Origin: Escherichia coli
GTDB taxonomy: Bacteria > Pseudomonadota > Gammaproteobacteria > Enterobacterales > Enterobacteriaceae
Length of the DNA: 64,000 nucleotides
Assembly: GCF_024700885.2 (NCBI RefSeq)
Contig: NZ_CP117016.1
Strand: one strand, 5' to 3'
This document shows, piece by piece, positions 15,704-40,261 of this stretch. Each line of letters begins with the position of its first letter. The first letter of the stretch is position 1. The notes beneath the pieces were generated by a model. It saw only the letters and a program-made list of their open reading frames with translations. It was not told the DNA's origin and did no database searches. The position numbers and the translations under genes were made by a program.

Positions 15704-16663
15704 ATGAAAATTTGTATCGACGACGGCTCCACCAACATCAAGCTGGCATGGACTGAGAACGGCGAACGCCGCAACGCCATCAGCCCGAACAGCTTCAAGT
15801 CGGAATGGTCTGCGCCGTTCGGTGGCACGCAGCCCGCGAACTACATGCTTGATGGCGTGCGCTATGGTTTTGATCCGGTCAGCGATCGCTTTATCCAGAC
15901 GACCGACACACAATACCAGTACAGCGATGTGAATGTCATTGCCATTCATCACGCGCTGGTCAAATCAGGCATCACGCCACAGGAGGTGGATGTGGTTGTC
16001 ACCCTGCCACTGAGCGAGTATTTCGACACAAACGCACAGCCGGACATGGCCAACATCAACCGCAAAAAAGCAAACGTTATGCGCCCGGTGGAATACCAGA
16101 ACGGCGAAGCATTCACTATCCGTAATGTACGGGTTATGCCTGAATCCATTCCGGCTGGCTTTAAAGCACTGGCTGACATGAGTCCGTTTGAATCCCTGCT
16201 GATTGTGGATTTAGGTGGAACCACGCTGGATGTGGCAAAGGTTCAGGGACAACTGGCAGGTATCAGCCAGGTGTTTTGCGATCCACACGTAGGCGTTTCC
16301 CTGATGGCCGATGCAGTACTGTCGGTGATGGCCACTAACGGTATGCGTACCAGTCACCACATCGCCAATACCATTATCGAACATCGCCATGATGAAGCCT
16401 GGCTGCGCCAGCACATCCACAATGACGCGCATTACGCCAGCCTGATGGCGGTTATTCGTGAAAAGGAAGAAACACTGAAACAACGCGTGATCCGCGCGCT
16501 GGCGGGTTTTTCGGGTTACGGGCGGGTGATGGTTGTCGGTGGCGGGGCGGAGATTGTGGCACCCGCTATCCGCGAAGCCTGCGGAGTTAATGCGACTTTC
16601 ATCGCGGACGGGGTGCCACAGTTTGCTCTGGTTAATGGGCTGTACGCAATGGACAAGGAGTAA
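15704..16663 (+). CDS. ParM/StbA-like actin-family segregation ATPase
   Basis: 319 aa; IDDGSTNIKL, YSDVNVIAIHHAL, VMPESIPAG, LIVDLGGTTLD, VMVVGGGAE, LVNGLY match remembered R1 ParM blocks. Confidence 0.8.
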   Translation: MKICIDDGSTNIKLAWTENGERRNAISPNSFKSEWSAPFGGTQPANYMLDGVRYGFDPVSDRFIQTTDTQYQYSDVNVIAIHHALVKSGITPQEVDVVVTLPLSEYFDTNAQPDMANINRKKANVMRPVEYQNGEAFTIRNVRVMPESIPAGFKALADMSPFESLLIVDLGGTTLDVAKVQGQLAGISQVFCDPHVGVSLMADAVLSVMATNGMRTSHHIANTIIEHRHDEAWLRQHIHNDAHYASLMAVIREKEETLKQRVIRALAGFSGYGRVMVVGGGAEIVAPAIREACGVNATFIADGVPQFALVNGLYAMDKE

Positions 16664-16667
16664 ACCA

Positions 16668-16979
16668 ATGACGACACCAACCAGGCGGATAAGTTTCTAT
16701 CTGAAGCCTGCGGCCGTCAAGAACGAAAGCGAAGCATGCGCCTGGCTGGACAGCCTTACACCGGAAGCCCGCAAAAGCGGCCAACGCGTGGCTTTTCTGG
16801 CCGGGCTGGCACTTCTGAAAATGAATCCGGCAGAGGCTTACCGACTGGCTGCATGGGCTGACGATGAGGCGTTATCAGTGACACAAACCAGGACAGAACG
16901 CCCCCTGTCACAGCCAGTACCAACCGCACAGATAACCAGTCAGATGGCCGGAAATATCAGGGCGTTATTTCCTGAATAA
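16668..16979 (+). CDS. ParR/StbB-like centromere-binding adaptor
   Basis: RRISFYLKP...AFLAGLAL...IRALFP resembles R1 ParR; immediately downstream of parM-like gene. Confidence 0.65.
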   Translation: MTTPTRRISFYLKPAAVKNESEACAWLDSLTPEARKSGQRVAFLAGLALLKMNPAEAYRLAAWADDEALSVTQTRTERPLSQPVPTAQITSQMAGNIRALFPE

Positions 16980-28364: not shown

Positions 28365-29261
28365 ATGCCTGCCGTTGACCTTTCACAGTTACCGGAACCC
28401 GCCATCATCGCGGAGCCTGACTTTGAGGCAATTCTGGCTGACACAAAGGCCATGATGATTGCGTCCTATCCCGCCGAACAGCGTGAAGCCGTTTCCGCCG
28501 CGCTGGAGCTGGAATCGGAACCCCTTAACGTTATCGCTCAAACCATGTCGTTTCGTGAAATGCTGTTACGCCAGCGGGTCAATGAGGGTGCACGCGCCTG
28601 CATGCTAAGCCACAGCGCCGGGACAGACCTGGACAACCTCGCGGGCAATATGAACACAAAGCGCCTGGTTATCACTCCGGCAACGGATACCACCGACGCA
28701 GTGATGGAAAGTGACACCTCGCTGAGACTACGGGCGCAACGGGCATATGACGGTCTGAGTGTTGCTGGCCCGTCAGGTGCATACGAGTATTTTGCACGCA
28801 GCGCCAGCGGTCTGGTACGCGATGCGCGGGCCATCAGCCCGTCTCCGGCCAACGTGACGGTTTCCATCCTGTCCACTGAGGGCGACGGCACAGCAACGGA
28901 GGCGTTGCTTAATACCGTTCGCGCCGTTCTGAATGCAGAGCATACCCGCCCGGTGGCCGACCGCCTGACCGTACAGAGTGCCAGAATCGTGACATGGCGG
29001 CTGAATGCAAAACTGTACTTTTACCCCGGCCCGGAATCCGAACCTATTCTGGCCGCGGCGGAATCGTCATTCAGGAAGTGGCTGGCTGAACAGGGGCTTA
29101 TCGGTCAGGACGTGGCGTTGTCCGCCATTGCTGCCGCACTTCATGTACACGGCGTGCAACGCGTGGAGATAATCGAACCCACACAGAATATGGCCATCAG
29201 CGACATACAGGCGGCGCGCTGTGAGTCATTCACCATCAGCGAAGGTGGGCGTAATGAGTAA
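28365..29261 (+). CDS. J: Baseplate wedge protein (P2 gpJ-like)
   Basis: 298-aa ORF in the conserved position. Confidence 0.8.
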   Translation: MPAVDLSQLPEPAIIAEPDFEAILADTKAMMIASYPAEQREAVSAALELESEPLNVIAQTMSFREMLLRQRVNEGARACMLSHSAGTDLDNLAGNMNTKRLVITPATDTTDAVMESDTSLRLRAQRAYDGLSVAGPSGAYEYFARSASGLVRDARAISPSPANVTVSILSTEGDGTATEALLNTVRAVLNAEHTRPVADRLTVQSARIVTWRLNAKLYFYPGPESEPILAAAESSFRKWLAEQGLIGQDVALSAIAAALHVHGVQRVEIIEPTQNMAISDIQAARCESFTISEGGRNE

Positions 29262-29784
29262 TTCACTGTTACCGCCATCAGCCAGCAGTTTCATGCGTCG
29301 TGCCGAAGCTGTCGGAACGCGCATTACAGACATCCCGGTAGACCTCAACACGCTGTGGTCGCCGGACACCTGCCCGGTGCACCTGCTGCCTTATCTCGCC
29401 TGGGCATTTTCCGTTGACCGCTGGGATCGCAACTGGCCGGAAGAGACAAAGCGACAGGTGATTCGTGATGCATGGCTGATACACCGACACAAGGGAACCA
29501 TCAGCGCACTGCGCCGGGCCATTGAGCCGCTGGGATACCTCATTCGTGTGTCTGAGTGGTGGGAGTTCGGCGGAGAACCGGGAACATTTACCGTTGAAGT
29601 GGGCACGCTGGACAGTGGCGTGACGGAGGAAATGTATCTGGAAATGGAGCGGTTGATTGCTGATGCCCGCCCGGTCAGCCGCCACATGACAGGGCTGAAT
29701 ATCATTCAGGAGATCCCGGGAGATATTTTCGCGGCGGCAGCAACTTACGACGGTGAAGTCATTACCATTTATCCGGACGATTAA
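29254..29784 (+). CDS. I: Baseplate protein (P2 gpI-like)
   Basis: ATG overlapping J stop; a GTG at 29221 is the track start. Confidence 0.75.
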
Positions 29785-29786
29785 GC

Positions 29787-31976
29787 ATGAGTACCACAAC
29801 ACGTAAATTTAAAACCGTTATCACCGATACGGGTGCCAAAAAATTAGCTCAGGCAGCCGCGCCAGATGGTAAGCTTGTCCGCCTGACTCATATGGCCGTG
29901 GGCGACGGTGGCGGTACATTGCCCACACCAGACAGTAAGCAGACCCGTCTGGTGCATGAGGTGTGGCGACATACTGTTAATCGCGTCTTCCTGGACGCAA
30001 CACATCAGAACCGCATTATTGCGGAGCTGGTTATTCCTCCTGAAACGGGCGGATTCTGGATCCGGGAAATTGGTGTATTTGATGAGCACGGCGATTTGAT
30101 CGCGGTTGGCAATACAGCCGAAAGTTACAAGCCAACCGTTGCCGAAGGGTCAGGACGTGCACAAACATTTCGCACCATTCTGACCGTCTCCAGCACTGCC
30201 ACTGTGGCGCTTACCGTGGATAACACCATGGTTATGGCCACAGTGGATTACGTGAATGACAAACTGAAAGAACATGAACAGTCACGACGTCACCCGGACG
30301 CCTCGCTGACCGCAAAAGGCTTTGTTCAACTCAGTAGCGCCACCAACAGCACGTCTGAAGCACTGGCCGCAACGCCGAAAGCGGTCAAGGCAGCCTATGA
30401 CCTTGCTAACGGGAAATATACCGCACAGGACGCCACTATAGCGCGAAAAGGCCTTGTTCAGCTCAGTAGCGCCACCAACAGCGATTCTGAAACGCTGGCG
30501 GCAACACCAAAGGCGGTAAAGGCAGCATATGACCTTGCTAACGGGAAATATACCGCACAGGACGCTACCACAGCGCGAAAAGGTCTTGTCCAGCTCAGTA
30601 GTGCGACCAACAGCACATCCGAAATGCTGGCGGCAACACCAAAGGCGGTAAAGGCAGCATATGACCTTGCTAACGGGAAATATACCGCACAGGACGCTAC
30701 GACAGCACAAAAAGGAATTGTCCAGCTCAGTAGTGCAACCAACAGCGCATCTGAAACGCTTGCTGCGACATCGAAAGCAGTGAAAGCAGCTAATGACAAT
30801 GCGAATGGTCGGGTACCTTCTGCCCGTAAGGTGAATGGTAAGGCGCTTTCAGCGGATATAACACTGACACCGAAAGATATTGGTACGCTTAACTCAACAA
30901 CTATGTCATTCAGCGGTGGTGCTGGTTGGTTCAAATTAGCAACGGTAACCATGCCGCAGGCGAGTTCTGTTGTTTCAATTACGTTGATTGGTGGGGCTGG
31001 ATATAACGTCGGTTCACCTCAACAGGCAGGTATATCTGAACTTGTTTTGCGTGCAGGTAATGGTAATCCGAAGGGGATTACTGGTGCTTTATGGCAGCGC
31101 ACATCGGCAGGGTTTACAAATTTTGCCTGGGTCAATACATCTGGTGATACTTACGATATTTACGTTGCAATCGGAAATTATGCGACTGGTGTAAATATTC
31201 AATGGGATTATACCAGTAATGCCAGCGTAACGATTCATACGTCACCTGCATATTCTGCTAATAAGCCGGAAGGGTTAACGGACGGTACAGTTTATTCACT
31301 CTATACGCCATCAGAGCAGTTTTATCCGCCTGGCGCACCAATCCCGTGGCCATCGGATACCGTTCCGTCTGGTTATGCCCTGATGCAGGGGCAGACTTTT
31401 GACAAATCTGCCTACCCGAAACTTGCAGTCGCTTATCCGTCAGGCGTGATCCCTGATATGCGTGGCTGGACGATTAAGGGCAAGCCCGCCAGTGGTCGTG
31501 CCGTATTGTCTCAGGAACAGGACGGCATTAAATCGCACACCCACAGCGCCAGCGCATCCAGTACGGATTTGGGTACGAAAACCACATCTTCGTTTGATTA
31601 CGGCACTAAATCAACGAATAACACGGGTGCACATACCCACAATGTATCTGGTACTGCAAATAGTGCTGGCGCACATACTCATACCGTTCCATTAAGGAGA
31701 CCAAACAGTGGAGGTATGAATTTCGACTGGCTTGATGGTGCATCAAGTGGCACGGTGGTGGGGAATGGAACTGTGCCTTCTTCTGGCGCACATACCCACT
31801 CAGTATCAGGTACCGCTACAAGTGCTGGGGCACATGCACACACTGTTGGTATTGGCGCTCATACGCACTCTGTTGCGATTGGTTCACATGGACACACCAT
31901 CACCGTTAACGCTGCTGGTAACGCGGAAAACACCGTTAAAAACATCGCATTTAATTATATTGTGAGGCTTGCATAA
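29787..31976 (+). CDS. H: Tail fibre protein (P2 gpH-like) with internal tandem repeats and His-rich C-terminal domain
   Basis: 729 aa; four 44-aa repeats ([15 protein letters not shown]...[15 protein letters not shown]) and C-terminal GAHTH(S/T)V repeats. Confidence 0.85.
30315..30800 (+). repeat. Four tandem 132-bp repeats within tail fibre gene H
   Basis: Units begin at 30315, 30447, 30579 and 30711; the fourth diverges in its second half. Confidence 0.8.
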
Positions 31977-32593
31977 TGGCATTCAGAATGAGTGAACAAT
32001 CACGTACTGTAAAAATTTATAACCTGCTGGCCGGAACTAATGAGTTTATTGGTGAAGGTGACGCATATATTCCACCTCATACAGGGCTGCCAGCTAATTC
32101 TACAGATATCGCCCCACCGGAAATTCCTGCTGGCTTTGTGGCAGTTTTTAACAGTGAAAATGAATCGTGGAATATTGTTGAAGACCATCGTGGTAAAACG
32201 GTCTATGACGTGGCATCGGGGGACGCGTTGTTTATTTCTGAGCCCGGACCGCTACCAGAGAATGTCACCTGGTTGTCGCCAGCAGGGGAGTATCAGAAGT
32301 GGGACGGCGTATCCTGGGTGAAGGATGAGGAAGCAGAAAAACTGTTTCGGATACGGGAAGCGGAAGAGAAAAAGGCAAGGTTGATCCAGGAAGCAACAGA
32401 TAACATCGCAATTCTGCAGGATGCAGTTAATCTTGAAATAGCAACAAACGAGGAAAATTCACAACTGGATTCCTGGAGAAAATACAGAGTATTAGTGAGT
32501 AGAATTGACACCAGTACAGCTCCGGATATCGTATGGCCAGAGCTGATGAATCAGGGTTATGTGCGGGAGGACGAGCAGATAACTTCAGACTGA
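31976..32593 (+). CDS. G: Tail fibre assembly chaperone (P2 gpG-like)
   Basis: 205-aa ORF starting on the H stop (TAATG). Confidence 0.8.
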
Positions 32594-33120
32594 AATTTAG
32601 TGATGAATGTTGAATCATCAGGAATATCATGCAATACCAATGCATGAGCACCTATTGTGACATTGTTTCCTATACGCACTTTGCCACCAAGAATGGTGGC
32701 ATTACAACCAATGGTCACATTATGTCCTATAACAATATCCATATCATTAAAATCACCACGCAGCCCAATAGTTACCCCTGGTTTTATTGAACAATTTTCA
32801 CCGATTGTTACTTTGTGACCGATAACAACACTGTTGAGATAAGAAATATCAAAGCCTTTCCCTATATTTACAGTTAAAGGGACTGTTACATTATATTTAT
32901 CAAGAATGAAACGTTCTATTTTCCCCGCAATCTTCCGACAGTATCCGCCTTTATCAAAAAGGTACTTGGCTATGCGCCACCAAAATAAATAACGAACTCT
33001 TCTATGTTTTATTGCGCGAACAATTGCCTTTCGCCAGGAGAAAGGACGCTCGCTACCGATTACTTCATAGTGAATACAATCTTTAAGTTCATTAATATTC
33101 ATATCTCTATTATTCAGCAT
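32557..33120 (-). CDS. Low-GC cargo: hexapeptide-repeat (left-handed beta-helix) acetyltransferase
   Basis: 187 aa with repeated [LIV]GxxxxIG hexapeptides; about 30% GC; between G and the tail module. Confidence 0.7.
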
Positions 33121-33290
33121 AAGATAATCATGTGACCAATTATTGTAATAATTTTAATGGTATGTTTCTACTGGCTATCCAGCGCGCCTGATGTCCAGTA
33201 ACAAATCGTTAACACTAGTGCAATCAAATGGTGAGTGTTAAGACTGGCCACTTATTACCAGGTATGAGGGTATGAGTGGCCAGCATTAAA

Positions 33291-33785
33291 TCAGAACAGC
33301 CCTTTAACTGAACTGGCCGCGCTGTTAAGGGATGATGTCACTTTATCTTTGAAGCCGGACAGCATATCGCTGAACGATGAGGATTGCAGGCGCTCCCGCA
33401 AATCCTCATCACAGCGTTCAAGGGTCAGTGAAAATTCTATCTTTTTCGCCTTACCGTAGCGATCAAACTCGGAACGGGTCGTATTCGTTTCGGTCAGGAC
33501 ATACATGCCGTAAATCTGCCCGACGCCATCAATCAGAGGCCAGGGGCGTCCTGTATACGCCTGCGTGGTCAGCAGCGACAGCGACACTTCGCCACCTGTA
33601 ATTTCAGGATAAAGCACACCAGAAAGAACGATGCGATCATCACCTGCACCGATATACTGCCAGCTTGCTGAACGGTTAACGCGTTCATTTTTCACATGCC
33701 GCCAGCTTTTGTTTTGCTGTAACTGCTGATGCGGCAGCGTGCGCAGCTCAAAAACAAACATGCCGTAGATCATCATCATGGCCAT
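33291..33785 (-). CDS. U: Tail protein (P2 gpU-like)
   Basis: 164-aa ORF downstream of tape measure on the same strand. Confidence 0.7.
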   Translation of the reverse strand: MAMMMIYGMFVFELRTLPHQQLQQNKSWRHVKNERVNRSASWQYIGAGDDRIVLSGVLYPEITGGEVSLSLLTTQAYTGRPWPLIDGVGQIYGMYVLTETNTTRSEFDRYGKAKKIEFSLTLERCDEDLRERLQSSSFSDMLSGFKDKVTSSLNSAASSVKGLF

Positions 33786-33791
33786 GACTCC

Positions 33792-36608
33792 TCAATCTTT
33801 ATCGTAAAAACTGCCACGCCCGGCACGGGCGCGCCGTTCCATTTCTGCCCTGACCATTTCACCGACCAGTTTCGCCAGTTCGCGGGGATTCTGCGTAACA
33901 ACGTTATGCAGATGAACATGAATTTCACCACCAAATCCGGAGGCAACAGGCTCCCGGTTACGGAAAGTTACAGGAACTGATGCCACTGGAGATCGTATGG
34001 CCTCCGCCACCGGGCGGGAGCTGGCCGCAACAACAGGGACCAGCGCCGGAGGCAGCGGAGCCGGGACCACGGGTGTGATATTAATTGCGGGGGCAGGCTT
34101 ACTGACCTGCGCAATCTTCCGCTCCTGCCACTCCCCACGAACAGCAAGTGCGCGGGGCAGGTTCTTAAAGACAATATCGCCGGGGCCAATGCGTTTTTTC
34201 GTCTCATCAACCAGCTTACCTGTGTTATCAGCAATTTTGCTGAGTCTGCGTAGCGTCCCGGTATTGCTGTCTGTGAGCGGTTTGTTGTCTTTGGGTTTAT
34301 CACCTCCGGTGCCATTGCCATTTTCCACAGGCTTCGGCGGATTGATTTTCGCCAGGTCACCCTGAAGCAAGGCAACCTTGTCCTGAAGAATGGCCGCACG
34401 CTGTGCGTCTTCGATTTTCTTGCGCGCCCTTTCCGCTTCATCCGGAAGGACGCCAAGTTTTTCAAGTATCCACGCCAGCGTATCCAGTAGCATTTTTGCA
34501 GGTGTCAGAACAAGCTGTAACGCACCGCCAAGAACGTTACCGAATATCTCGCCAGCACTGGTACATTTATCCAGCGTTTCCTTGCTGGACTCCATCGGTG
34601 ACAGCAGCGATTTAAACCAGTTAAACACCTGGCTGATCCCGCTTCCGATTGCGTCAAAAACAGGACCAAACCGTTCAAAGGTTTCGCGCAACGGGGTCAG
34701 CCTTTCCATAATCCCGCTGAACACCCCGGCAAAAAATGCCCTGATGGGATCCCAGTATTTCCAGATAAGAACGGCAGCTCCGGCAAGCGCAGCCACGATA
34801 AGACCAACCGGACTGAACAGCGCCCCGATAGCGCCTCCCAGTAAAGAAACGGAACCCGTCACCATTCCCCACAGCGCAGGCAACACCCTGACGACATTCA
34901 TTGACCGGGTAAGAATGTCGAAACCAAGACGCAGGGTGGCCAGCTTCCCGTAAAGCACCCCAATAACCAGCGACAACGAGCCAATCGTTGCAGTCATTGC
35001 CAGCAACGCACCGCCTGCTATCAGTAGTTGGCGCGTCAGTACCGGATGGGCCTGCGCCAGCGAGGTGATTTTTTCAAGCACCCGCGTGAGCCACTGCGTG
35101 ACAGAACGCAGCGGACCGTCAACCAGATCACTGATGCGAATACGAAGACCTTCCCATGCGCTGTCGAGATTTTTCAGGTCCCCATCAAGATTATCGGCCA
35201 TTACTTTTGCGACGCGATCGGCCTCTCCCCTTGCCCCCTGCAATTCTCTGGTCAGTTTTTGCAGCTCTCCTGAACCAGCCGCCGCAACAAGCGTCTGCAA
35301 ACCAACGAACGCCTCTTCTCCGGCGATGTCCTTGAAGAAGGAAACCTGGTCCACCTGTCCGTATTTTTGTGTCGCCTTATAGAGATCAAGCAGCACATCC
35401 TCCATCGGGCGCATTTTGCCTCTGGCGTCAGCAACTGACACCCCCAGCTCTTTCAGTGCATCAGCCGCAGCTTTTGGCGGTGATGCAAGGCGGGACAGAC
35501 TTGCGCGCATGGCCGTACCAGCATCGCTTCCGCGAAGACCATTATTGGCAAGCATCCCGGCCATGGCCGCCGCTTCTTCAAGACTGATACCAAGTTTTGC
35601 GGCAACCGGACCGGTATACTTCATGGTTTCGCCCAGCGCGCGTAAATCAGTATTGGTCCGGGTGAATGTTGCTGTCAGTGTATCGCCAACCCGGTCCATT
35701 TGATCGGCTGTCAGGTTGAACTGTGTGAGGATATTGGAGCCTATATCAGCCGTCTCGCCGAGTTCGACGCCACCTGCCAGCGCCATATTAAGAACACCGG
35801 GCAATGCGGCCTGAATGGCCTGCGGAGTAAAACCAGCCATTGCCAGAAAGCTCTGCCCACTGGCGGCATCACTCGCAGTAAACTGTGTTTCAGAGCCAAG
35901 TTTTAACGCCTGCTCACGCAGCGCCTTAAACTGCGGGCTGTTTTTGTCGATTCGCGTCAGTGCCTGAACGCGGGACATCTCTTTGCCGAACCCGATCGCA
36001 GGCTGCAAAAAACGCCCGGCAGCATAGCCGCCCGCCGCTGCCGCACCAATTGCCAGCGCACCACCTGTTTTCAGTTTTCCCGCTGTTTCCTGCGCGCGCG
36101 AATACCGCTCACGCGCCCGCGTTACACGCGCAAGCGCCTGCCGTTCGCGTTCAAGCTGGTTGTTGTACTGTTCGGTGCGTCTGATGGCCTGCTGGATGGT
36201 GTTATCGCTGCCTGTCAGGGAAATGCCGTGGCGTTTCAGCTCTCCGCCAAGTTCCCGCATTTTCTGAATTTCCCGTGTGCGCGATTCATTCAGGCGTTCA
36301 AGCCGGGTGCTTAACTGCTGCATCAGCTTTTGTTGTTTTTCGCTGAGCACTGTACCCGTGCGTTGTAACTGATTAAGGGCGTTAAGCTGGCGTCGTGCTT
36401 TCACGATGCCCGCATCCGCTTTACTGACAGCGTCACGGGCGCGCTCAAATGAACGCGCCTGACGCTCGAGATTTTTGATCGCCCCCTGCGTTCGCTGGAT
36501 GGAGTCACCAAACTGCCCCATCAGGCGGCGGGCGTTTTCGGCAGGCCGGGTCAGCCTGTCAACGGCGCTGAAAGCGACCCGGATATCAAGAGTCTTCATT
36601 GTCTGCAT
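33792..36608 (-). CDS. T: Tail tape measure protein (P2 gpT-like)
   Basis: About 940 aa, long coiled-coil N-terminal half, Gly/Ala-rich membrane-like segments; start could be 36608, 36599 or GTG 36635. Confidence 0.8.
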   Translation of the reverse strand: MQTMKTLDIRVAFSAVDRLTRPAENARRLMGQFGDSIQRTQGAIKNLERQARSFERARDAVSKADAGIVKARRQLNALNQLQRTGTVLSEKQQKLMQQLSTRLERLNESRTREIQKMRELGGELKRHGISLTGSDNTIQQAIRRTEQYNNQLERERQALARVTRARERYSRAQETAGKLKTGGALAIGAAAAGGYAAGRFLQPAIGFGKEMSRVQALTRIDKNSPQFKALREQALKLGSETQFTASDAASGQSFLAMAGFTPQAIQAALPGVLNMALAGGVELGETADIGSNILTQFNLTADQMDRVGDTLTATFTRTNTDLRALGETMKYTGPVAAKLGISLEEAAAMAGMLANNGLRGSDAGTAMRASLSRLASPPKAAADALKELGVSVADARGKMRPMEDVLLDLYKATQKYGQVDQVSFFKDIAGEEAFVGLQTLVAAAGSGELQKLTRELQGARGEADRVAKVMADNLDGDLKNLDSAWEGLRIRISDLVDGPLRSVTQWLTRVLEKITSLAQAHPVLTRQLLIAGGALLAMTATIGSLSLVIGVLYGKLATLRLGFDILTRSMNVVRVLPALWGMVTGSVSLLGGAIGALFSPVGLIVAALAGAAVLIWKYWDPIRAFFAGVFSGIMERLTPLRETFERFGPVFDAIGSGISQVFNWFKSLLSPMESSKETLDKCTSAGEIFGNVLGGALQLVLTPAKMLLDTLAWILEKLGVLPDEAERARKKIEDAQRAAILQDKVALLQGDLAKINPPKPVENGNGTGGDKPKDNKPLTDSNTGTLRRLSKIADNTGKLVDETKKRIGPGDIVFKNLPRALAVRGEWQERKIAQVSKPAPAINITPVVPAPLPPALVPVVAASSRPVAEAIRSPVASVPVTFRNREPVASGFGGEIHVHLHNVVTQNPRELAKLVGEMVRAEMERRARAGRGSFYDKD

Positions 36609-37124
36609 TCCCGCTGCGAAGTGCCGCCCGCTCACGCCAGCTAACCACTTCGCCGGGCGTCATCATGAAGATTTCGGCGGGCGACCAGTTAAAAATGGCG
36701 GCGATATCTGCCACCAGATCTTCGATGTGCTCAAAGCACACCAGCGTGATTACGCTGCCGTCTCCTGCACGCTCTTCGCGCCAGAGTCTGGCTCGCTCAT
36801 AAAATTTACAGCCACAGCGCACAACTGAATAAAATCGCGTGACGACATTTTTTTAATCATCACTTCATCCAGTCGTGGCGAGGTCACGCGAGGCAACAGC
36901 GTGAACATGGTATCCGCTTTCAGATTCAGCACATCAGACAGCGACAGACCACGCAGGGATCCAGCCTGTTCAATAGCCCCGGTGATCTCCACATACGTGA
37001 TTTTTTCGCCACCACGCTCAATTGGTCGGGTCAGTTTTACGCCACGTTCGACAGCCATATCCTCACCTGCCGTCACATCATCCACCACGGTGTTATTCCG
37101 GGTTTCAGTATCGATGTCTTTCAT
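36586..37124 (-). CDS. Tail assembly chaperone E+E' fusion by programmed -1 ribosomal frameshift
   Basis: Slippery heptamer A_AAT_TTT on the minus strand (36807-36801) in E frame; -1 frame continues ...KFYERARLW... to a stop at 36586. Confidence 0.6.
36750..37124 (-). CDS. E: Tail assembly chaperone (P2 gpE-like)
   Basis: 124-aa ORF between tail tube and tape measure. Confidence 0.7.
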   Translation of the reverse strand: MKDIDTETRNNTVVDDVTAGEDMAVERGVKLTRPIERGGEKITYVEITGAIEQAGSLRGLSLSDVLNLKADTMFTLLPRVTSPRLDEVMIKKMSSRDFIQLCAVAVNFMSEPDSGAKSVQETAA

Positions 37125-37179
37125 CAGTTTTCTCCTTTTCAGTCAGAGGCGACGCACTGCGTCGCCTGCATATTACTTA

Positions 37180-37692
37180 TCAGCCAAGCCCGAGCGCGGA
37201 ACGGATACGGTCAGGCAAAATGTCCTTGCCGTCCTTCCGGTAGATGTGGTTCAACAGGTCGATTTCCCACAGCGGGCGATCGTTAACGCTCAGCTTGTAG
37301 TAGGTGTTTTTGACAGCGTAAGTGTGTGATGTGGCTTCGCCCTGTTTGGCTTCCCCCATATCAATTTCCGTCACACGTCCGCGCATCTCGATTTCATACA
37401 GATCGCTTTCTGCATCGGTGTAGTATTCACCCGCAAAACGCAGCAGCGTGCCGTCAATCGTGCCGCCATATTTAAGGAACAGCGCACGAACAGCTCCCCC
37501 CATAACAAAACTCGCATCAAGCGCGGAGTCGTCCAGACCGAGATCAATACTTACCGCCCCCATCATGCCACCACCACGATAGCTGTCGGTTTTGCGCGTC
37601 AGTTTGGGCGGCGTGACGGATGTCACTTTACCCACTTCGTTTTCACCATCCACAAACAACGTAAAAAAGCGAAGATGTTTTGGTACAGCCAT
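37180..37692 (-). CDS. FII: Tail tube protein (P2 gpFII-like)
   Basis: 170-aa ORF directly downstream of sheath gene. Confidence 0.8.
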   Translation of the reverse strand: MAVPKHLRFFTLFVDGENEVGKVTSVTPPKLTRKTDSYRGGGMMGAVSIDLGLDDSALDASFVMGGAVRALFLKYGGTIDGTLLRFAGEYYTDAESDLYEIEMRGRVTEIDMGEAKQGEATSHTYAVKNTYYKLSVNDRPLWEIDLLNHIYRKDGKDILPDRIRSALGLG

Positions 37693-38876
37693 CAGGCACC
37701 TCCCAGCACCGCAAATGCGGGACCAAAGAATTCATCAGTAAACGTCTGGTAAAGCTCCATGTCTTCCAGTGGCGGAACGGGCGTATATTTGTAGCGAATA
37801 CGCACACGTCCCTGACGTAAATTCGTGGTGCCGTTATCCACCACGTCATACCAGCACTCCGCGCCAATCAGTTTCCCGGCAGTAACCAGCGAATCCAGTT
37901 TTGCCCTGATGGCACTGATAACATCCTTCACGTTCGCAGGCGTCAGTGGACTGTCGATAGTTTCAAACTGCGCTTCCGCAATTGAATCAGCCAGCACCTG
38001 TGCGGTTCGGGTATACACCTCAAAGATGTAGGCGTTCGTTTCCGGTGTGCGGTTGCCCCAGAAGCGGAACCCATTGCGACGAATAATGGTCGTGATTTCT
38101 TTGTTGTTGAGGCTGTTGGCATCGCTGTCTTCGGCCTGCAACGACCAGAACACATGCCTCGACATCCCCAGCACATTTTTAACCGGAACGTTGGACAGTG
38201 ATTTGTGCCACCCCTGCTCATGGTCAATGTACGCACGAAGGCCGCACGCATAGGCAGGCGCGGGGAACGTTTCGTTTTTGCCACTTTTCGGGTTGTAGGC
38301 GATGAAGTCCGGCCATAAGAGCATCACCTCACGTTCGTTGAATTTCTGGCGGTAGGTAATCGCCTCAGCCATCGTGTTACAGCCGTGACATGAGGCATAC
38401 ACAAACGCGCGCAGTTTACCTGCAATCACGCACAGGGATTTTGTTACAGCCTCCGTGTCCAGCTCCGGCGCGGCCAGAATACGCGGACGGTATCCGATGC
38501 TTTCATCCTGCTCTGCAACAAGCAGCGCATACATCCCCGTATAGCTGCCGTCATCCTCAGAACCACCGATAACCAGTTGATCCTGCGTCTTTCCGTCTTC
38601 TTCTTTGTGTTCAGCCACGCGAACGACAATCACCTTTGTGCTCACCTGGTCTGCGATGGCCTTAAGCGCACGATAAAGCGTCCCCGTTGTCCCGCATTTT
38701 CCCAGCACGTCATTGACGCGGGTCAGCAGTGTGGGCTTGTTCAGCGGGAACAGCTTCGCGTCCGCATCATCCGCCGTTGCCACGATACCGATAACGCTGG
38801 AATCAACATCGTTAATCGCTGTTACCAGGTCGGTATTTTCCGTAACACGGGCACCATGAAAACGAGTTTCACTCAT
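37692..38876 (-). CDS. FI: Contractile tail sheath protein (P2 gpFI-like)
   Basis: 394 aa; LIRR(N/D)GFRFWGNRT and YTPVPPLE blocks match remembered P2 FI. Confidence 0.85.
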   Translation of the reverse strand: MSETRFHGARVTENTDLVTAINDVDSSVIGIVATADDADAKLFPLNKPTLLTRVNDVLGKCGTTGTLYRALKAIADQVSTKVIVVRVAEHKEEDGKTQDQLVIGGSEDDGSYTGMYALLVAEQDESIGYRPRILAAPELDTEAVTKSLCVIAGKLRAFVYASCHGCNTMAEAITYRQKFNEREVMLLWPDFIAYNPKSGKNETFPAPAYACGLRAYIDHEQGWHKSLSNVPVKNVLGMSRHVFWSLQAEDSDANSLNNKEITTIIRRNGFRFWGNRTPETNAYIFEVYTRTAQVLADSIAEAQFETIDSPLTPANVKDVISAIRAKLDSLVTAGKLIGAECWYDVVDNGTTNLRQGRVRIRYKYTPVPPLEDMELYQTFTDEFFGPAFAVLGGA

Positions 38877-39033
38877 AGCTTCAGCCCCTTGTATCCGTTA
38901 AATGATTCGGCAACAATCATCACCCACCACGCGCGTAATCTCACCCCTGCGCCGTTCTCCCACCACGGCGACAACAAAAAGCAGTAACCCCCTCCGCACG
39001 CACATGCGACCATGCCGCACAGGGAGGGAACAG

Positions 39034-40131
39034 ATGACCGACACCACCATGCAATTGCTCAGTCAGGGCACAGACCCCGTGAAAATGCCGGATTTTGATA
39101 TTCTCGCGGAGGGTAAAACGCTGTCAGGCGTGACAGAGCGCCTGATGAGCCTGTCACTGACCGACAACCGGGGATTTGAGGCGGACCAGCTCACCATCAC
39201 GCTGGATGATGCAGATGGTCAGTTGCAGCTACCGCCACGGGGCGCGCGCCTGACGGTTCTCATTGGCTGGAAAGGAGAACCGCTGACAGAAAAAGGCACT
39301 TACATTGTTGATGAAATCGCTCACGAAGGACCGCCGGACAGGCTGACTGTTTCAGCCAGAAGCGCAGATTTTCGGGATGAATTTAACGTTAAACGTGAGG
39401 TGTCCTGGCATGATGTGACCGTTGAGCGTGTGGTATCCGCCATCGCTCATCGGTACGGTCTGAAACCGCAAATCAGCGAAATGCTGATGGATATCGAAAT
39501 CGACCACGCCGACCAGACCGAAGAAAGCGACATGTCCTTTCTTACGCGCATGGCGGAAATGCTGGGCGCAATCACCACGGTAAAAAGCGGTAATCTGTTA
39601 TTCATTATGCCAGGCGGTGGCGTGAACGCACAGGGCCAGCCGTTGCCATCGTTCGCCATCACGCGCAGCAGTGGCGATCGCCATCAGTTCCGCATTGCTG
39701 ACCGCGAAGCGTATACGGGGGTACGCGCTTACTGGCTTGATCTTAATTACGGGAAAAAGAAAAAAGTCAGCGTGAAACGCCGTAAACCGAAAATGGAGAA
39801 AAGCAGTAGCCGTGAAGGCGACTATATGGAAGGTGCGGAAGGCAACGTGTTTGTGTTACGCAAGACTTATCAGAACGAACAGGCAGCAAGACGCGCTGCG
39901 GCGGCAAAGTGGCAGCAGCTACAACGCGGAGCCGCATCATTCTCCATCACACTGGCACGTGGACGCGCAGAACTCTACCCCGAAATGCATGGCACGGTAA
40001 CAGGATTTAAAAGCGAGATTGATAATCAGGACTGGATTATTGCAAAAGCCGAGCACACCATTGATAACAGCGGTTATACCACGCAGCTTGAACTTGAAAC
40101 AAAAATCCCTGAATGGATTGCGCAGACCTAA
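39034..40131 (+). CDS. D: Late control/tail protein D (P2 gpD-like)
   Basis: Start at MTDTTMQ with RBS agggaggg; the track ORF begins far upstream at a non-ATG. Confidence 0.75.
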   Translation: MTDTTMQLLSQGTDPVKMPDFDILAEGKTLSGVTERLMSLSLTDNRGFEADQLTITLDDADGQLQLPPRGARLTVLIGWKGEPLTEKGTYIVDEIAHEGPPDRLTVSARSADFRDEFNVKREVSWHDVTVERVVSAIAHRYGLKPQISEMLMDIEIDHADQTEESDMSFLTRMAEMLGAITTVKSGNLLFIMPGGGVNAQGQPLPSFAITRSSGDRHQFRIADREAYTGVRAYWLDLNYGKKKKVSVKRRKPKMEKSSSREGDYMEGAEGNVFVLRKTYQNEQAARRAAAAKWQQLQRGAASFSITLARGRAELYPEMHGTVTGFKSEIDNQDWIIAKAEHTIDNSGYTTQLELETKIPEWIAQT

Positions 40132-40146
40132 ATGGTGGGAAGATAC

Positions 40147-40185
40147 GGCACAGAGCCAACATAATATACCTGTTTGCTCTGTGCC
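40147..40185. other. Stem-loop (10-bp stem ggcacagagc/gctctgtgcc) between convergent D and the low-GC orphan
   Basis: Inverted repeat read from sequence; no clear U-tract, so terminator function is uncertain. Confidence 0.35.
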
Positions 40186-40261
40186 CGAAATAGGCATCAT
40201 AAACCTAACGATGAATTGATATGCAAGATTATAAAAAATCCGCTGACATTATTTCTCATCG

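What the first reader, a model, noticed from the sequence alone, without database searches (positions are those of the whole stretch)
32557..33120. Low-GC hexapeptide-repeat acetyltransferase at the tail-fibre/tail-module junction
A 187-aa left-handed beta-helix acetyltransferase gene of about 30% GC lies convergent with tail-fibre chaperone G, overlapping its 3' end by 37 nt, at the position where P2 carries Z/fun. A cytoplasmic acetyltransferase in a phage may modify a sugar-nucleotide or surface polysaccharide precursor (lysogenic conversion or receptor masking), or inactivate a small molecule.
Basis: partly seen in the sequence, partly recalled or inferred. Interest (0 to 1): 0.5.

Follow-up and report, generated by a model that had tools for sequence, protein, structure and literature searches.

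The report
Phage-carried acetyltransferase-like gene beside tail fibre
A real, well-conserved accessory gene of an E. coli P2-like prophage encodes a beta-helix acetyltransferase-like protein that travels between unrelated phages together with the tail-fibre tip and its chaperone, is mislabelled "serine acetyltransferase", and in this version has lost the usual catalytic residues, so its function is still unknown.

Summary
The ORF is real: 32557..33120 (-), 187 aa, probably 181 aa from the ATG at 33102. It converges on the tail-fibre chaperone gene G with a 37-nt overlap. GC is 37.2% (GC3 29.8%), not about 30%. It lies in the variable accessory-gene ("moron") slot after G of a P2-like E. coli prophage whose FI-U tail operon is inverted.

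The protein has a CysE-like left-handed beta-helix fold and belongs to PHROG 2154 (function unknown). It is not a serine acetyltransferase. It falls far below every curated NCBIfam cut-off, and the CysE catalytic and serine-binding residues are all replaced (D143, D157, H158, R192, H193 become T79, S93, Y94, M127, D128). This Tyr-type state is confined to one small clade; 48 of 48 other phage relatives keep Asp/Glu plus His. Purifying selection is still strong (dN/dS 0.04-0.10).

A 2-kb block (fibre tip, tfa, this gene) is 95-96% identical in a P1-like and another phage-plasmid; an 86.5%-identical copy sits in a lambdoid remnant. In 16 of 33 family clusters the gene sits tail-to-tail with a tfa.

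The most likely role is an accessory gene expressed in the lysogen that alters an envelope glycan precursor, but no substrate is shown. It is a new variant of a known kind (compare NeaT, Z/fun, NeuO). Interest is moderate.

The parts
32557..33120 (-). ORF for the beta-helix acetyltransferase-like protein. The longest form is 187 aa; the probable start is the ATG at 33102 (181 aa). In ORF numbering, T79, S93, Y94, M127 and D128 replace CysE D143, D157, H158, R192 and H193.
31976..32593 (+). Tail-fibre assembly chaperone (P2 G / Tfa). Its last 37 nt overlap the 3' end of the acetyltransferase-like gene. Its 5' two-thirds are 85-90% identical to tfaR/tfaQ of K-12; its 3' part is specific to this cassette.
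32557..32593 (.). 37-nt tail-to-tail overlap of the two convergent ORFs. In other family clusters the two genes end within a few tens of bases of each other: annotated gaps are 15-43 nt in four loci, and HMM-aligned ends lie 15-75 nt apart.
31325..33381 (.). Mobile host-range block: the C-terminal ~217 codons of fibre gene H, then tfa, then the acetyltransferase-like gene and its upstream region, plus 90 nt of the U 3' end. It is 95.6-96.0% identical in phage vB_EcoM-613R2 and phage-plasmid pECO-b75. A shorter stretch (31344..33190) is 95.5% identical in a P1-like plasmid.
29787..31976 (+). Tail fibre gene (P2 H-like, 729 aa), with three tandem ~132-nt repeats and His-rich GxHxH motifs near the tip.
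33121..33285 (-). AT-rich (39% GC) upstream region that moves with the gene. Homology to sister prophages resumes exactly at 33286.
33142..33170 (-). Best sigma-70-like promoter candidate (TAGAAA-17-TACAAT), 22 nt upstream of the first ATG. It is a consensus match only.
33238..33289 (-). Hairpin just after the U stop codon (10-bp GC-rich stem, no U-run). It may act as a partial terminator separating the tail operon from the cargo gene.
33291..33785 (-). Tail gene U (PHROG 76), the last gene of the inverted FI-U tail operon and the right-hand border of the variable slot.

Best explanation
The gene is a self-contained accessory ('moron') gene of temperate phages. It is inherited as part of a mobile fibre-tip, Tfa-chaperone and beta-helix-protein block.

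The product is a soluble, probably trimeric, acyl-CoA-binding left-handed beta-helix protein of the CysE/WcaB/EpsC branch. It is not a serine acetyltransferase.

Inferred steps: it is transcribed from its own AT-rich promoter, antisense to the late fibre genes, in the lysogen. It acts at the cytoplasmic face on a sugar-nucleotide or lipid-linked precursor of an envelope glycan (LPS, O-antigen, ECA or capsule). This changes the cell surface, giving receptor masking, superinfection exclusion or serotype and fitness conversion. Phage NeuO does this for the K1 capsule, and the unrelated acyltransferase NeaT appears to act similarly from the same P2 slot.

The allele in this window belongs to a derived clade in which the Asp/His general-base dyad is replaced by Thr/Tyr. 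Its chemistry must therefore differ: another base, an amine acceptor that needs no base, or binding without transfer.

Shown here: fold, family, loss of the dyad, purifying selection, cassette mobility and linkage to tfa. Inferred: expression in the lysogen, substrate class and phenotype.
For: Fold and family:
- Pfam Hexapep.
- Best NCBIfam resemblance is to EpsC, CysE and WcaB.
- AlphaFold pLDDT is 93, and Foldseek top hits are CysE structures with TM about 0.7.
- Full-length PHROG 2154 match.
- The columns of the C-terminal beta-helix coils are (nearly) invariant in both Tyr- and His-type proteins; by analogy with CysE, whose CoA contacts lie in these coils, the acyl-CoA site is probably kept (inference).

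The gene is functional: dN/dS is 0.04-0.10 against copies in three other replicons.

Accessory-gene character:
- GC is 37% against about 50% nearby.
- The upstream region moves with the gene and carries promoter-like sites.
- Orientation is opposite to the fibre genes in every context seen.

Linkage to the host-range module:
- The same 2-kb block is 95-96% identical in P2-like, P1-like and pECO-b75-type replicons, and an 86.5%-identical fibre'-tfa-gene copy lies in a lambdoid remnant.
- 16 of 33 family clusters (90% identity) have a convergent tfa within 120 nt.
- Others abut what look, from their N-terminal sequences, like fibre genes or an invertase-like gene.
- Gene clusters and tfa clusters agree almost perfectly (ARI 0.998).
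- A sister prophage carries a 38%-identical His-type allele in the same slot.

Precedents:
- NeaT, a low-GC acyltransferase opposite to the tail genes at P2 moron position 2, with envelope and virulence phenotypes (PMC3573123).
- NeuO of prophage CUS-3 (PMC3046976; PMC13001214).

Localisation: the N-terminal domain is basic (pI 10), and the protein has no strongly hydrophobic (membrane-spanning) stretch, consistent with a soluble or peripheral cytoplasmic protein.
Against: - No substrate, expression data or phenotype exist, and the literature calls the function unknown (PMC9603915; PMC6456863).
- This allele lacks the catalytic His and Asp that its relatives keep.
- All scores against polysaccharide acetyltransferase models are far below cut-off.
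- Linkage may be mere adjacency. This gene cluster is found with five different fibre-tip clusters (ARI for gene against tip is only 0.68). A 92%-similar proximal tip segment and an 84%-similar tfa in JL22 sit beside a 37%-identical allele.
- The gene occurs in many unrelated E. coli strains, so any target would have to be a common structure, not one O-type.
- Relatives on IncI/K plasmids, and chromosomal copies in other genera, have no fibre context.
Confidence: 0.45

Rival explanations
1. The Tyr-type protein is a pseudo-enzyme. It keeps the trimeric beta-helix and ligand pockets but no longer transfers acyl groups. It would act by binding or sequestering a sugar-nucleotide, acyl-CoA or host enzyme, for example by blocking a step of envelope glycan synthesis.
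For: - Both dyad residues are replaced together: Thr, Lys or Val with Tyr in every clade member, against Asp/Glu with His in 48 of 48 other phage relatives.
- His is present in most of the 247 relatives compared (about 9 in 10); outside this clade, five relatives have Asn and one has Tyr at that column.
- Strong purifying selection shows that a function is retained.
Against: - The columns of the C-terminal beta-helix coils (by analogy with CysE, the acyl-CoA-contacting region) stay invariant, which is expected for an enzyme.
- From general knowledge of QdtC- and WlbB-type N-acetyltransferases, some beta-helix acyltransferases work without a protein base.
- There is no known precedent in this branch.
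Confidence: 0.2
2. The gene is an anti-phage defence or counter-defence gene unrelated to surface glycans. It would acetylate an intracellular phage or host target, and sit here because this is a defence and accessory-gene hotspot.
For: - Relatives occupy both variable P2 hotspots, including the int-proximal one next to an abortive-infection gene in ESSI2_ev040.
- Another relative sits beside hicAB in phiNP, and others on IncI/K plasmids near toxin-antitoxin genes.
- P2 hotspots are known reservoirs of defence systems (PMC9122126).
Against: - No PADLOC family matches.
- The two P2-hotspot papers do not mention it.
- The strongest recurring neighbour is tfa or the fibre gene, not defence genes.
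Confidence: 0.15
3. The gene has a late or virion-related role. It would be expressed by read-through from the FI-U tail operon and modify the fibre, Tfa or receptors on lysing cells, so that progeny are not lost on debris.
For: - In this window the gene is co-directional with U and 170 nt downstream of it. Only a hairpin without a U-run lies between them.
- There is near-perfect co-inheritance with tfa.
- In S. thermophilus phage 9871 a relative lies within the late strand, after the last structural gene.
Against: - In pECO-b75, the P1-like plasmid, yong2 and the lambdoid remnant the gene is not downstream of any late operon and is antisense to the fibre genes.
- Protein acetylation by beta-helix enzymes is not established.
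Confidence: 0.1
4. The gene is a true serine O-acetyltransferase, an auxiliary metabolic gene that boosts cysteine synthesis, as database names say.
For: - GenBank and PGAP name it 'serine acetyltransferase'.
- CysE structures are the nearest solved relatives.
Against: - TIGR01172 scores 70.5 bits against a cut-off of 210.65, and PRK11132 scores 44 against 397.
- CysE D143, D157, H158, R192 and H193 are T, S, Y, M and D here.
- There is no SATase N-terminal Pfam domain.
- The C-terminus is not CysE-like.
Confidence: 0.03
5. The gene is a xenobiotic or antibiotic acetyltransferase of the Vat or CatB type.
For: Weak local matches to Vat and CatB models and structures over one or two beta-helix coils.
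Against: - Scores are 22-27 bits against cut-offs of 300-475.
- The matches cover only about 40 residues.
- The genomic context is the phage fibre module.
Confidence: 0.02

Closest known systems
NeaT of the CFT073 P2-like prophage phi-b0847 (PMC3573123)
   Same: Same slot: P2 'moron position 2', directly after G. Also a single low-GC gene opposite to the fibre genes, an acyltransferase by prediction, spread among unrelated tailed phages with high allelic variance, and with an unknown biochemical target.
   Different: NeaT is an integral-membrane Acyl_transf_3 (PF01757) protein. This one is a soluble left-handed beta-helix protein with no homology to NeaT. NeaT has virulence and surface phenotypes; none are known here.
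NeuO, polysialic acid O-acetyltransferase of prophage CUS-3 (PMC3046976)
   Same: A prophage-borne beta-helix acyltransferase-family protein that acts in the cytoplasm. NeuO-mediated capsule O-acetylation enhances phage resistance (PMC13001214).
   Different: NeuO belongs to the MAT/GAT/NodL branch, with a catalytic His and Trp, and has phase-variable 5' heptanucleotide repeats. This protein is CysE-like, has Tyr at the His position, and has no 5' repeats.
CysE serine O-acetyltransferase
   Same: The nearest solved fold: a helical N-domain plus beta-helix (Foldseek TM about 0.7, 20-33% identity).
   Different: About 90 residues shorter at the N-terminus. The catalytic dyad and all serine-binding residues are replaced. 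Scores are far below family cut-offs. It is not a member.
WcaB / EpsC-type short polysaccharide O-acetyltransferases
   Same: Similar size (about 160-190 aa), the same branch of the superfamily, and the best NCBIfam resemblance. The low GC is typical of surface-polysaccharide genes.
   Different: Scores reach only about half (EpsC) or a third (WcaB) of the cut-offs or less. The gene is not in a polysaccharide gene cluster. The conserved His is lost in this allele.
P2 Z/fun and the invertible fibre segments of Mu, P1 and the ST131 sister prophage
   Same: They occupy the same variable position after the fibre chaperone gene. In the P1-like phage JL22 a relative lies next to cin, between the alternative fibre/chaperone pair (S, U) and tfa, in what corresponds to P1's invertible C segment (the segment itself is not annotated).
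   Different: No sequence similarity. No invertase and no gix/cix-like site were found here.

Membership tests
Left-handed beta-helix (hexapeptide) acyltransferase superfamily | Hexapeptide repeats detectable by profile | tested here: met
   PF00132 matches twice, at E 4.4e-6 and 1.8e-5.
Left-handed beta-helix (hexapeptide) acyltransferase superfamily | Beta-helix fold | tested here: met
   AlphaFold pLDDT is 93 and pTM 0.87. Foldseek to CysE structures gives E 4e-8 and TM about 0.7.
Left-handed beta-helix (hexapeptide) acyltransferase superfamily | Catalytic histidine at the active site | tested here: not met
   Y94 aligns with CysE H158. Most of the 247 relatives (about 9 in 10) have His at that column.
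Left-handed beta-helix (hexapeptide) acyltransferase superfamily | Homotrimer with acyl-CoA bound at subunit interfaces | not testable with these tools
   Only a monomer model could be made. The columns of the C-terminal beta-helix coils (by analogy with CysE, the CoA-contacting region) are conserved.
Serine O-acetyltransferase (CysE) | Score above the curated family cut-off | tested here: not met
   TIGR01172 scores 70.5 against 210.65. NF008349 scores 44.2 against 397.
Serine O-acetyltransferase (CysE) | Asp143/His158 dyad and serine-binding Asp157, Arg192, His193 | tested here: not met
   The aligned residues are T79, Y94, S93, M127 and D128 (numbering checked).
Serine O-acetyltransferase (CysE) | SATase N-terminal domain | tested here: not met
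   No such Pfam hit. The protein is 187 aa, against about 270 aa for CysE.
WcaB / EpsC polysaccharide O-acetyltransferases | Score above the curated cut-off | tested here: not met
   EpsC scores 80.7 against 150. WcaB scores 62.2 against 196 and 59.8 against 194.65.
WcaB / EpsC polysaccharide O-acetyltransferases | Located in a polysaccharide biosynthesis cluster | tested here: not met
   The neighbours are phage fibre and tail genes.
NeuO / OatWY / MAT-GAT branch | Closest profile similarity; catalytic His and Trp; phase-variable 5' repeats (NeuO) | tested here: not met
   LacA and MAT models score 30-32 bits against cut-offs of 314-347. There are no tandem repeats in or upstream of the 5' end.
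PHROG 2154 (phage protein family, unknown function) | Full-length profile match | tested here: met
   E 4e-79, covering residues 5-186 against profile positions 2-184 of 185.
P2 'moron position 2' cargo (Z/fun, NeaT) | Non-essential foreign gene directly after fibre chaperone gene G, variable among related prophages | tested here: met
   Low GC. Sister prophages hold a different allele or an invertible fibre segment between the same borders. The slot is defined in PMC3573123.
P2 'moron position 2' cargo (Z/fun, NeaT) | Expressed in the lysogen from its own promoter | not testable with these tools
   Only consensus promoter-like sites at 33142..33170 and 33109..33138.
Known anti-phage defence systems (PADLOC) | Match to a defence-system protein model | tested here: not met
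   No families at E up to 0.1.
Xenobiotic acetyltransferases (Vat, CatB) | Score above the curated cut-off | tested here: not met
   Scores are 22-27.5 bits against cut-offs of 300-475.

The most novel reading that the evidence does not exclude
The Tyr-type clade is a re-wired or non-catalytic beta-helix protein that has become a functional partner of the tail-fibre and chaperone host-range cassette. For example, it could modify or block synthesis of the LPS or ECA structure that such fibres use, so that fibre specificity and self-exclusion are inherited as one unit across P2-, P1-, lambda- and pECO-b75-type phages. The His-type and Tyr-type alleles would then represent different target chemistries.
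Probability: 0.2. Interest if true: 0.65.

Novelty: new variant of a known kind. Interest (0 to 1): 0.42.

Why it matters
About 3% of complete E. coli genomes (184 of 5,426) carry this gene, and relatives sit on P1-like phage-plasmids and IncI/K plasmids. Databases nevertheless call it "serine acetyltransferase", and papers list its role as unknown.

If it alters the cell surface, it would be a second, structurally unrelated acyltransferase class at the P2 accessory-gene slot, next to NeaT. It would affect phage susceptibility, serology or virulence of lysogens.

Its co-transfer with fibre tip and chaperone matters for predicting host range and superinfection exclusion, and for engineering phage tail fibres. 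The paired loss of the Asp/His dyad under strong purifying selection is a clean test case for how beta-helix acyltransferases change or lose chemistry.

Tried and rejected
- PADLOC gave no defence-family hit.
- A gix/cix/hix-like inversion core (AAACCNNGGTTT, one mismatch allowed) gave no site in the prophage. There is therefore no sign that the slot is still invertible here.
- NeuO-like phase-variable repeats are absent.
- Rfam gave only a sub-threshold IS009 match inside tfa, most likely tfa-derived DNA.
- Serine acetyltransferase and Vat/CatB identities are rejected on cut-offs and residues.
- I tested whether the gene allele tracks the fibre-tip type. It tracks tfa almost perfectly (ARI 0.998) but the fibre tip only loosely (ARI 0.68, with five tip clusters for this allele). 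A matched fibre and receptor-modifier pair is therefore not demonstrated.
- Searches of the paper library for the protein accessions and the PHROG id found nothing.
- The two P2-hotspot papers do not mention acetyltransferases.
- I first suspected that gene D was truncated by the tail-operon inversion. The long ORF matches PHROG 52 over 364 residues, so D is intact and the RefSeq start is simply late.
- No clear intrinsic terminator was found for either convergent gene.

Full report
**What is there.** The window is E. coli DNA, 100% identical to strain E-1246. ORF 32557..33120 (-) encodes 187 aa. It converges on ORF 31976..32593 (+), which is a tail-fibre assembly chaperone: PHROG 105 at E 7e-94, and so named in RefSeq. 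The two reading frames overlap by 37 nt.

GC of the ORF is 37.2% (third positions 29.8%). The window is 50.4% and flanking phage genes are 46-58%.

RefSeq starts the gene at the second ATG (33102, 181 aa). The more distant full-length homologues also start there. I use ORF numbering (187 aa) below.

**What the protein is.**
- Pfam finds two hexapeptide repeats.
- NCBIfam ranks EpsC (80.7 bits, cut-off 150), CysE (70.5 against 210.65) and WcaB (62 against 196) first. All are far below their cut-offs. WbbJ, NeuD, LacA, Mat, Vat and CatB score lower still.
- The nearest solved sequences and folds are CysE serine acetyltransferases.
- AlphaFold gives a confident model (pLDDT 93): four N-terminal helices followed by the beta-helix.
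- The N-domain is basic (pI 10) and there is no strongly hydrophobic (membrane-spanning) stretch.
- PHROGs holds the family as phrog_2154, function unknown, with a full-length match at E 4e-79.
- PADLOC has nothing.

**Not a serine acetyltransferase, and the catalytic dyad is gone.** In the HMMER alignment to Salmonella CysE, the stretch VDIHPAAKIGRGIMLDH aligns with [17 protein letters not shown]. The spacing fits the published numbering (D143 to H158, 15 residues; T79 to Y94, 15 residues).
- CysE D143, D157 and H158 correspond to T79, S93 and Y94.
- R192 and H193 correspond to M127 and D128.

Among 89 family members from phage, plasmid and viral contigs, the two dyad positions co-vary perfectly: 41 are Thr+Tyr and 48 are Asp/Glu+His. 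More distant Tyr-type members have Lys or Val at the first position.

I also compared 247 relatives, including the 150 best representatives from 1.84 billion clustered proteins. Most (about 9 in 10) have His at that column. Non-His states are the window's clade (all Tyr), five Asn variants and one unrelated Tyr. Only five representatives reach E 1e-30 or better, so the enterobacterial phage clade is narrow.

**The gene is nevertheless under strong constraint.** Against the copies in phage vB_EcoM-613R2, plasmid pECO-b75 and a P1-like plasmid, there are 14-33 synonymous but only 2-10 non-synonymous differences (dN/dS 0.04-0.10). Synonymous divergence of this gene (0.12-0.33) is several times that of the adjacent tfa (0.04-0.06). 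This points to recombination inside the block.

**Setting in the window.** The prophage is P2-like, with capsid, lysis and baseplate genes V, W, J, I, H, G in P2 order on the plus strand. FI-FII-E-E'-T-U lies on the minus strand (33291..38876). D and ogr are again on the plus strand. D is complete, matching PHROG 52 over 364 residues. The gene therefore lies between the 3' ends of G and U.

In P2 terms this is "moron position 2", between G and FI, as defined in PMC3573123; Z/fun lies there by established knowledge of P2.

Two sister prophages share the backbone up to the variable part of H and again from exactly 33286, five bases past the U stop.
- One (strain 03_3469) has a 38%-identical His-type allele of the same family in the slot.
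- The other (an ST131 strain) has a second tfa, a fibre fragment and a recombinase. This is an invertible fibre segment.

**A mobile block.** Window 31325..33381 comprises the last ~217 codons of H, G, this gene, its upstream region and 90 nt of the U 3' end. It is 95.6-96.0% identical in vB_EcoM-613R2 and in the 47.5-kb phage-plasmid pECO-b75, where it abuts repA. The stretch 31344..33190 is 95.5% identical in a 96.6-kb P1-like plasmid. The U fragment shows that the block came from a P2-like phage with this arrangement.

A lambdoid remnant at the lambda attachment site (between ybhC and ybhB/bioA) keeps only int, xis, a truncated fibre gene, tfa and an intact copy of the gene at 86.5% identity.

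The near-identical DNA is in 184 of 5,426 complete E. coli genomes, at 159 chromosomal and 60 plasmid places.

**Family-wide context.**
- In IMG/VR, 170 stretches encode relatives. The 80 fetched loci, together with nine phage and plasmid loci fetched earlier (89 sequences in all), fall into 33 clusters at 90% identity.
- In 16 clusters a tfa lies tail-to-tail within 120 nt. This holds at 36-52% protein identity and also in Hafnia phage yong2 and Citrobacter phiNP.
- Others face what look, from their N-terminal sequences, like fibre genes (L059, L080), or lie next to an invertase-like gene and tfa genes (L053).
- In the P1-like phage JL22 the gene lies next to cin, between U and tfa, in what corresponds to P1's invertible C segment.
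- Gene clusters and tfa clusters coincide (ARI 0.998). The window's cluster, however, occurs with five fibre-tip clusters (ARI 0.68).
- Other relatives sit after int in P2-like ESSI2 phages, one of them beside an Abi gene.
- Others lie at a prophage edge in E. coli or near repA and yacAB on IncI/K plasmids.
- In other Enterobacterales they occur as solitary chromosomal genes with no tfa-like gene within 5 kb. One genome has three tandem copies.
- In S. thermophilus 987-type phages a distant relative follows the last structural gene.

**Literature.** The JL22 paper states that the reason for the gene is unknown (PMC9603915). The C. rodentium prophage paper lists it as a "fitness" gene (PMC6456863). 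The two P2-hotspot studies do not mention it.

The closest precedent is NeaT (PMC3573123). It is a 30%-GC acyltransferase of the unrelated membrane family PF01757, in the same slot and orientation in CFT073. It is needed for bacteraemia and changes surface behaviour. NeuO is the best-studied prophage beta-helix acetyltransferase, but it belongs to another branch, with a catalytic His and Trp and phase-variable repeats (PMC3046976). No such repeats occur here.

**How it most likely works.** The following points are shown: the fold, the family, the replaced dyad, the constraint, the block transfer and the tfa linkage. The rest is inference.
- The AT-rich upstream region moves with the gene and has promoter-like sites.
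- A hairpin without a U-run follows U.
- In most other replicons the gene is not downstream of a late operon.

I therefore favour an accessory gene expressed in the lysogen that acts on a cytoplasmic precursor of an envelope glycan and changes the surface (confidence 0.45). For this allele the chemistry is either altered or absent.

The rivals are a non-catalytic binder (0.2), a defence or counter-defence role (0.15), a late or virion-related role (0.1), a true serine acetyltransferase (0.03) and a xenobiotic acetyltransferase (0.02).

**Verdict.** This is a new variant of a known kind: acyltransferase cargo at the P2 accessory-gene slot and phage fibre module. It has two added points of interest, namely co-transfer with fibre tip and chaperone across four phage types, and a selected clade lacking the catalytic dyad. 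Interest is moderate (0.42).

Noticed in passing
window 33291..38876 (-), compared with 28365..32593 (+) and 38902..41884 (+): The tail operon FI-FII-E-E'-T-U is inverted relative to P2, while V, W, J, I, H, G and D, ogr keep P2 orientation. The same arrangement occurs in sister prophages, including one in an ST131 strain that carries a recombinase (invertase) gene next to U. The inversion may trace back to such an invertase.
   Followed up: partly
window 40262..41422 (-): A 386-aa ORF between D and ogr has no PHROG or PADLOC match. It is another cargo gene of unknown function at a third variable position of this prophage.
   Followed up: partly
window 32319..32517 (+): A full-length but sub-threshold Rfam match to IS009 (RF02111; 80.8 bits against a gathering score of 117, E 6e-18) lies inside the 3' half of the tfa gene. 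The Rfam 'sRNA candidate' probably derives from tfa-like prophage DNA.
   Followed up: no
window 38902..40131 (+); RefSeq CDS at 39343..40131: RefSeq annotates gene D as a 262-aa 'VgrG/Pvc8 family' protein. The ORF from 39034 matches the D-type tail protein PHROG 52 over 364 residues, so the annotated start looks too late.
   Followed up: yes
window 30271..30806 (+), inside fibre gene H: Three tandem ~132-nt repeats encode the unit '[39 protein letters not shown]'. Copy number seems to differ between related fibres.
   Followed up: no
window 31976..33120, compared with L002, L007 and L008: Synonymous divergence of the acetyltransferase-like gene (dS 0.12-0.33) is 3-9 times that of the adjacent tfa (0.04-0.06) in the same replicon pairs. 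This suggests recombination breakpoints between the two genes.
   Followed up: partly
L175 6001..7697 (Enterobacteriaceae bacterium BIT-l23 chromosome): Three tandem beta-helix (Hexapep) genes, the first 49% identical to the window protein, lie in a chromosomal region with no phage-related Pfam families among the called genes within 6 kb.
   Followed up: no
L009 4014..4601 (IncI-gamma/K1 plasmid p15648-2), and many IncI/K plasmids: A 37%-identical His-type relative is widespread on conjugative IncI/K plasmids, near repA and the yacAB toxin-antitoxin genes. These plasmids' thin-pilus adhesins also target LPS, which may or may not be a coincidence.
   Followed up: no
L001 3305..4580 (window about 15704..16979): ParM and partition genes lie in the early region of the prophage. 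This is the plasmid-partition cargo reported for about a quarter of P2-like phages (PMC9122126).
   Followed up: no
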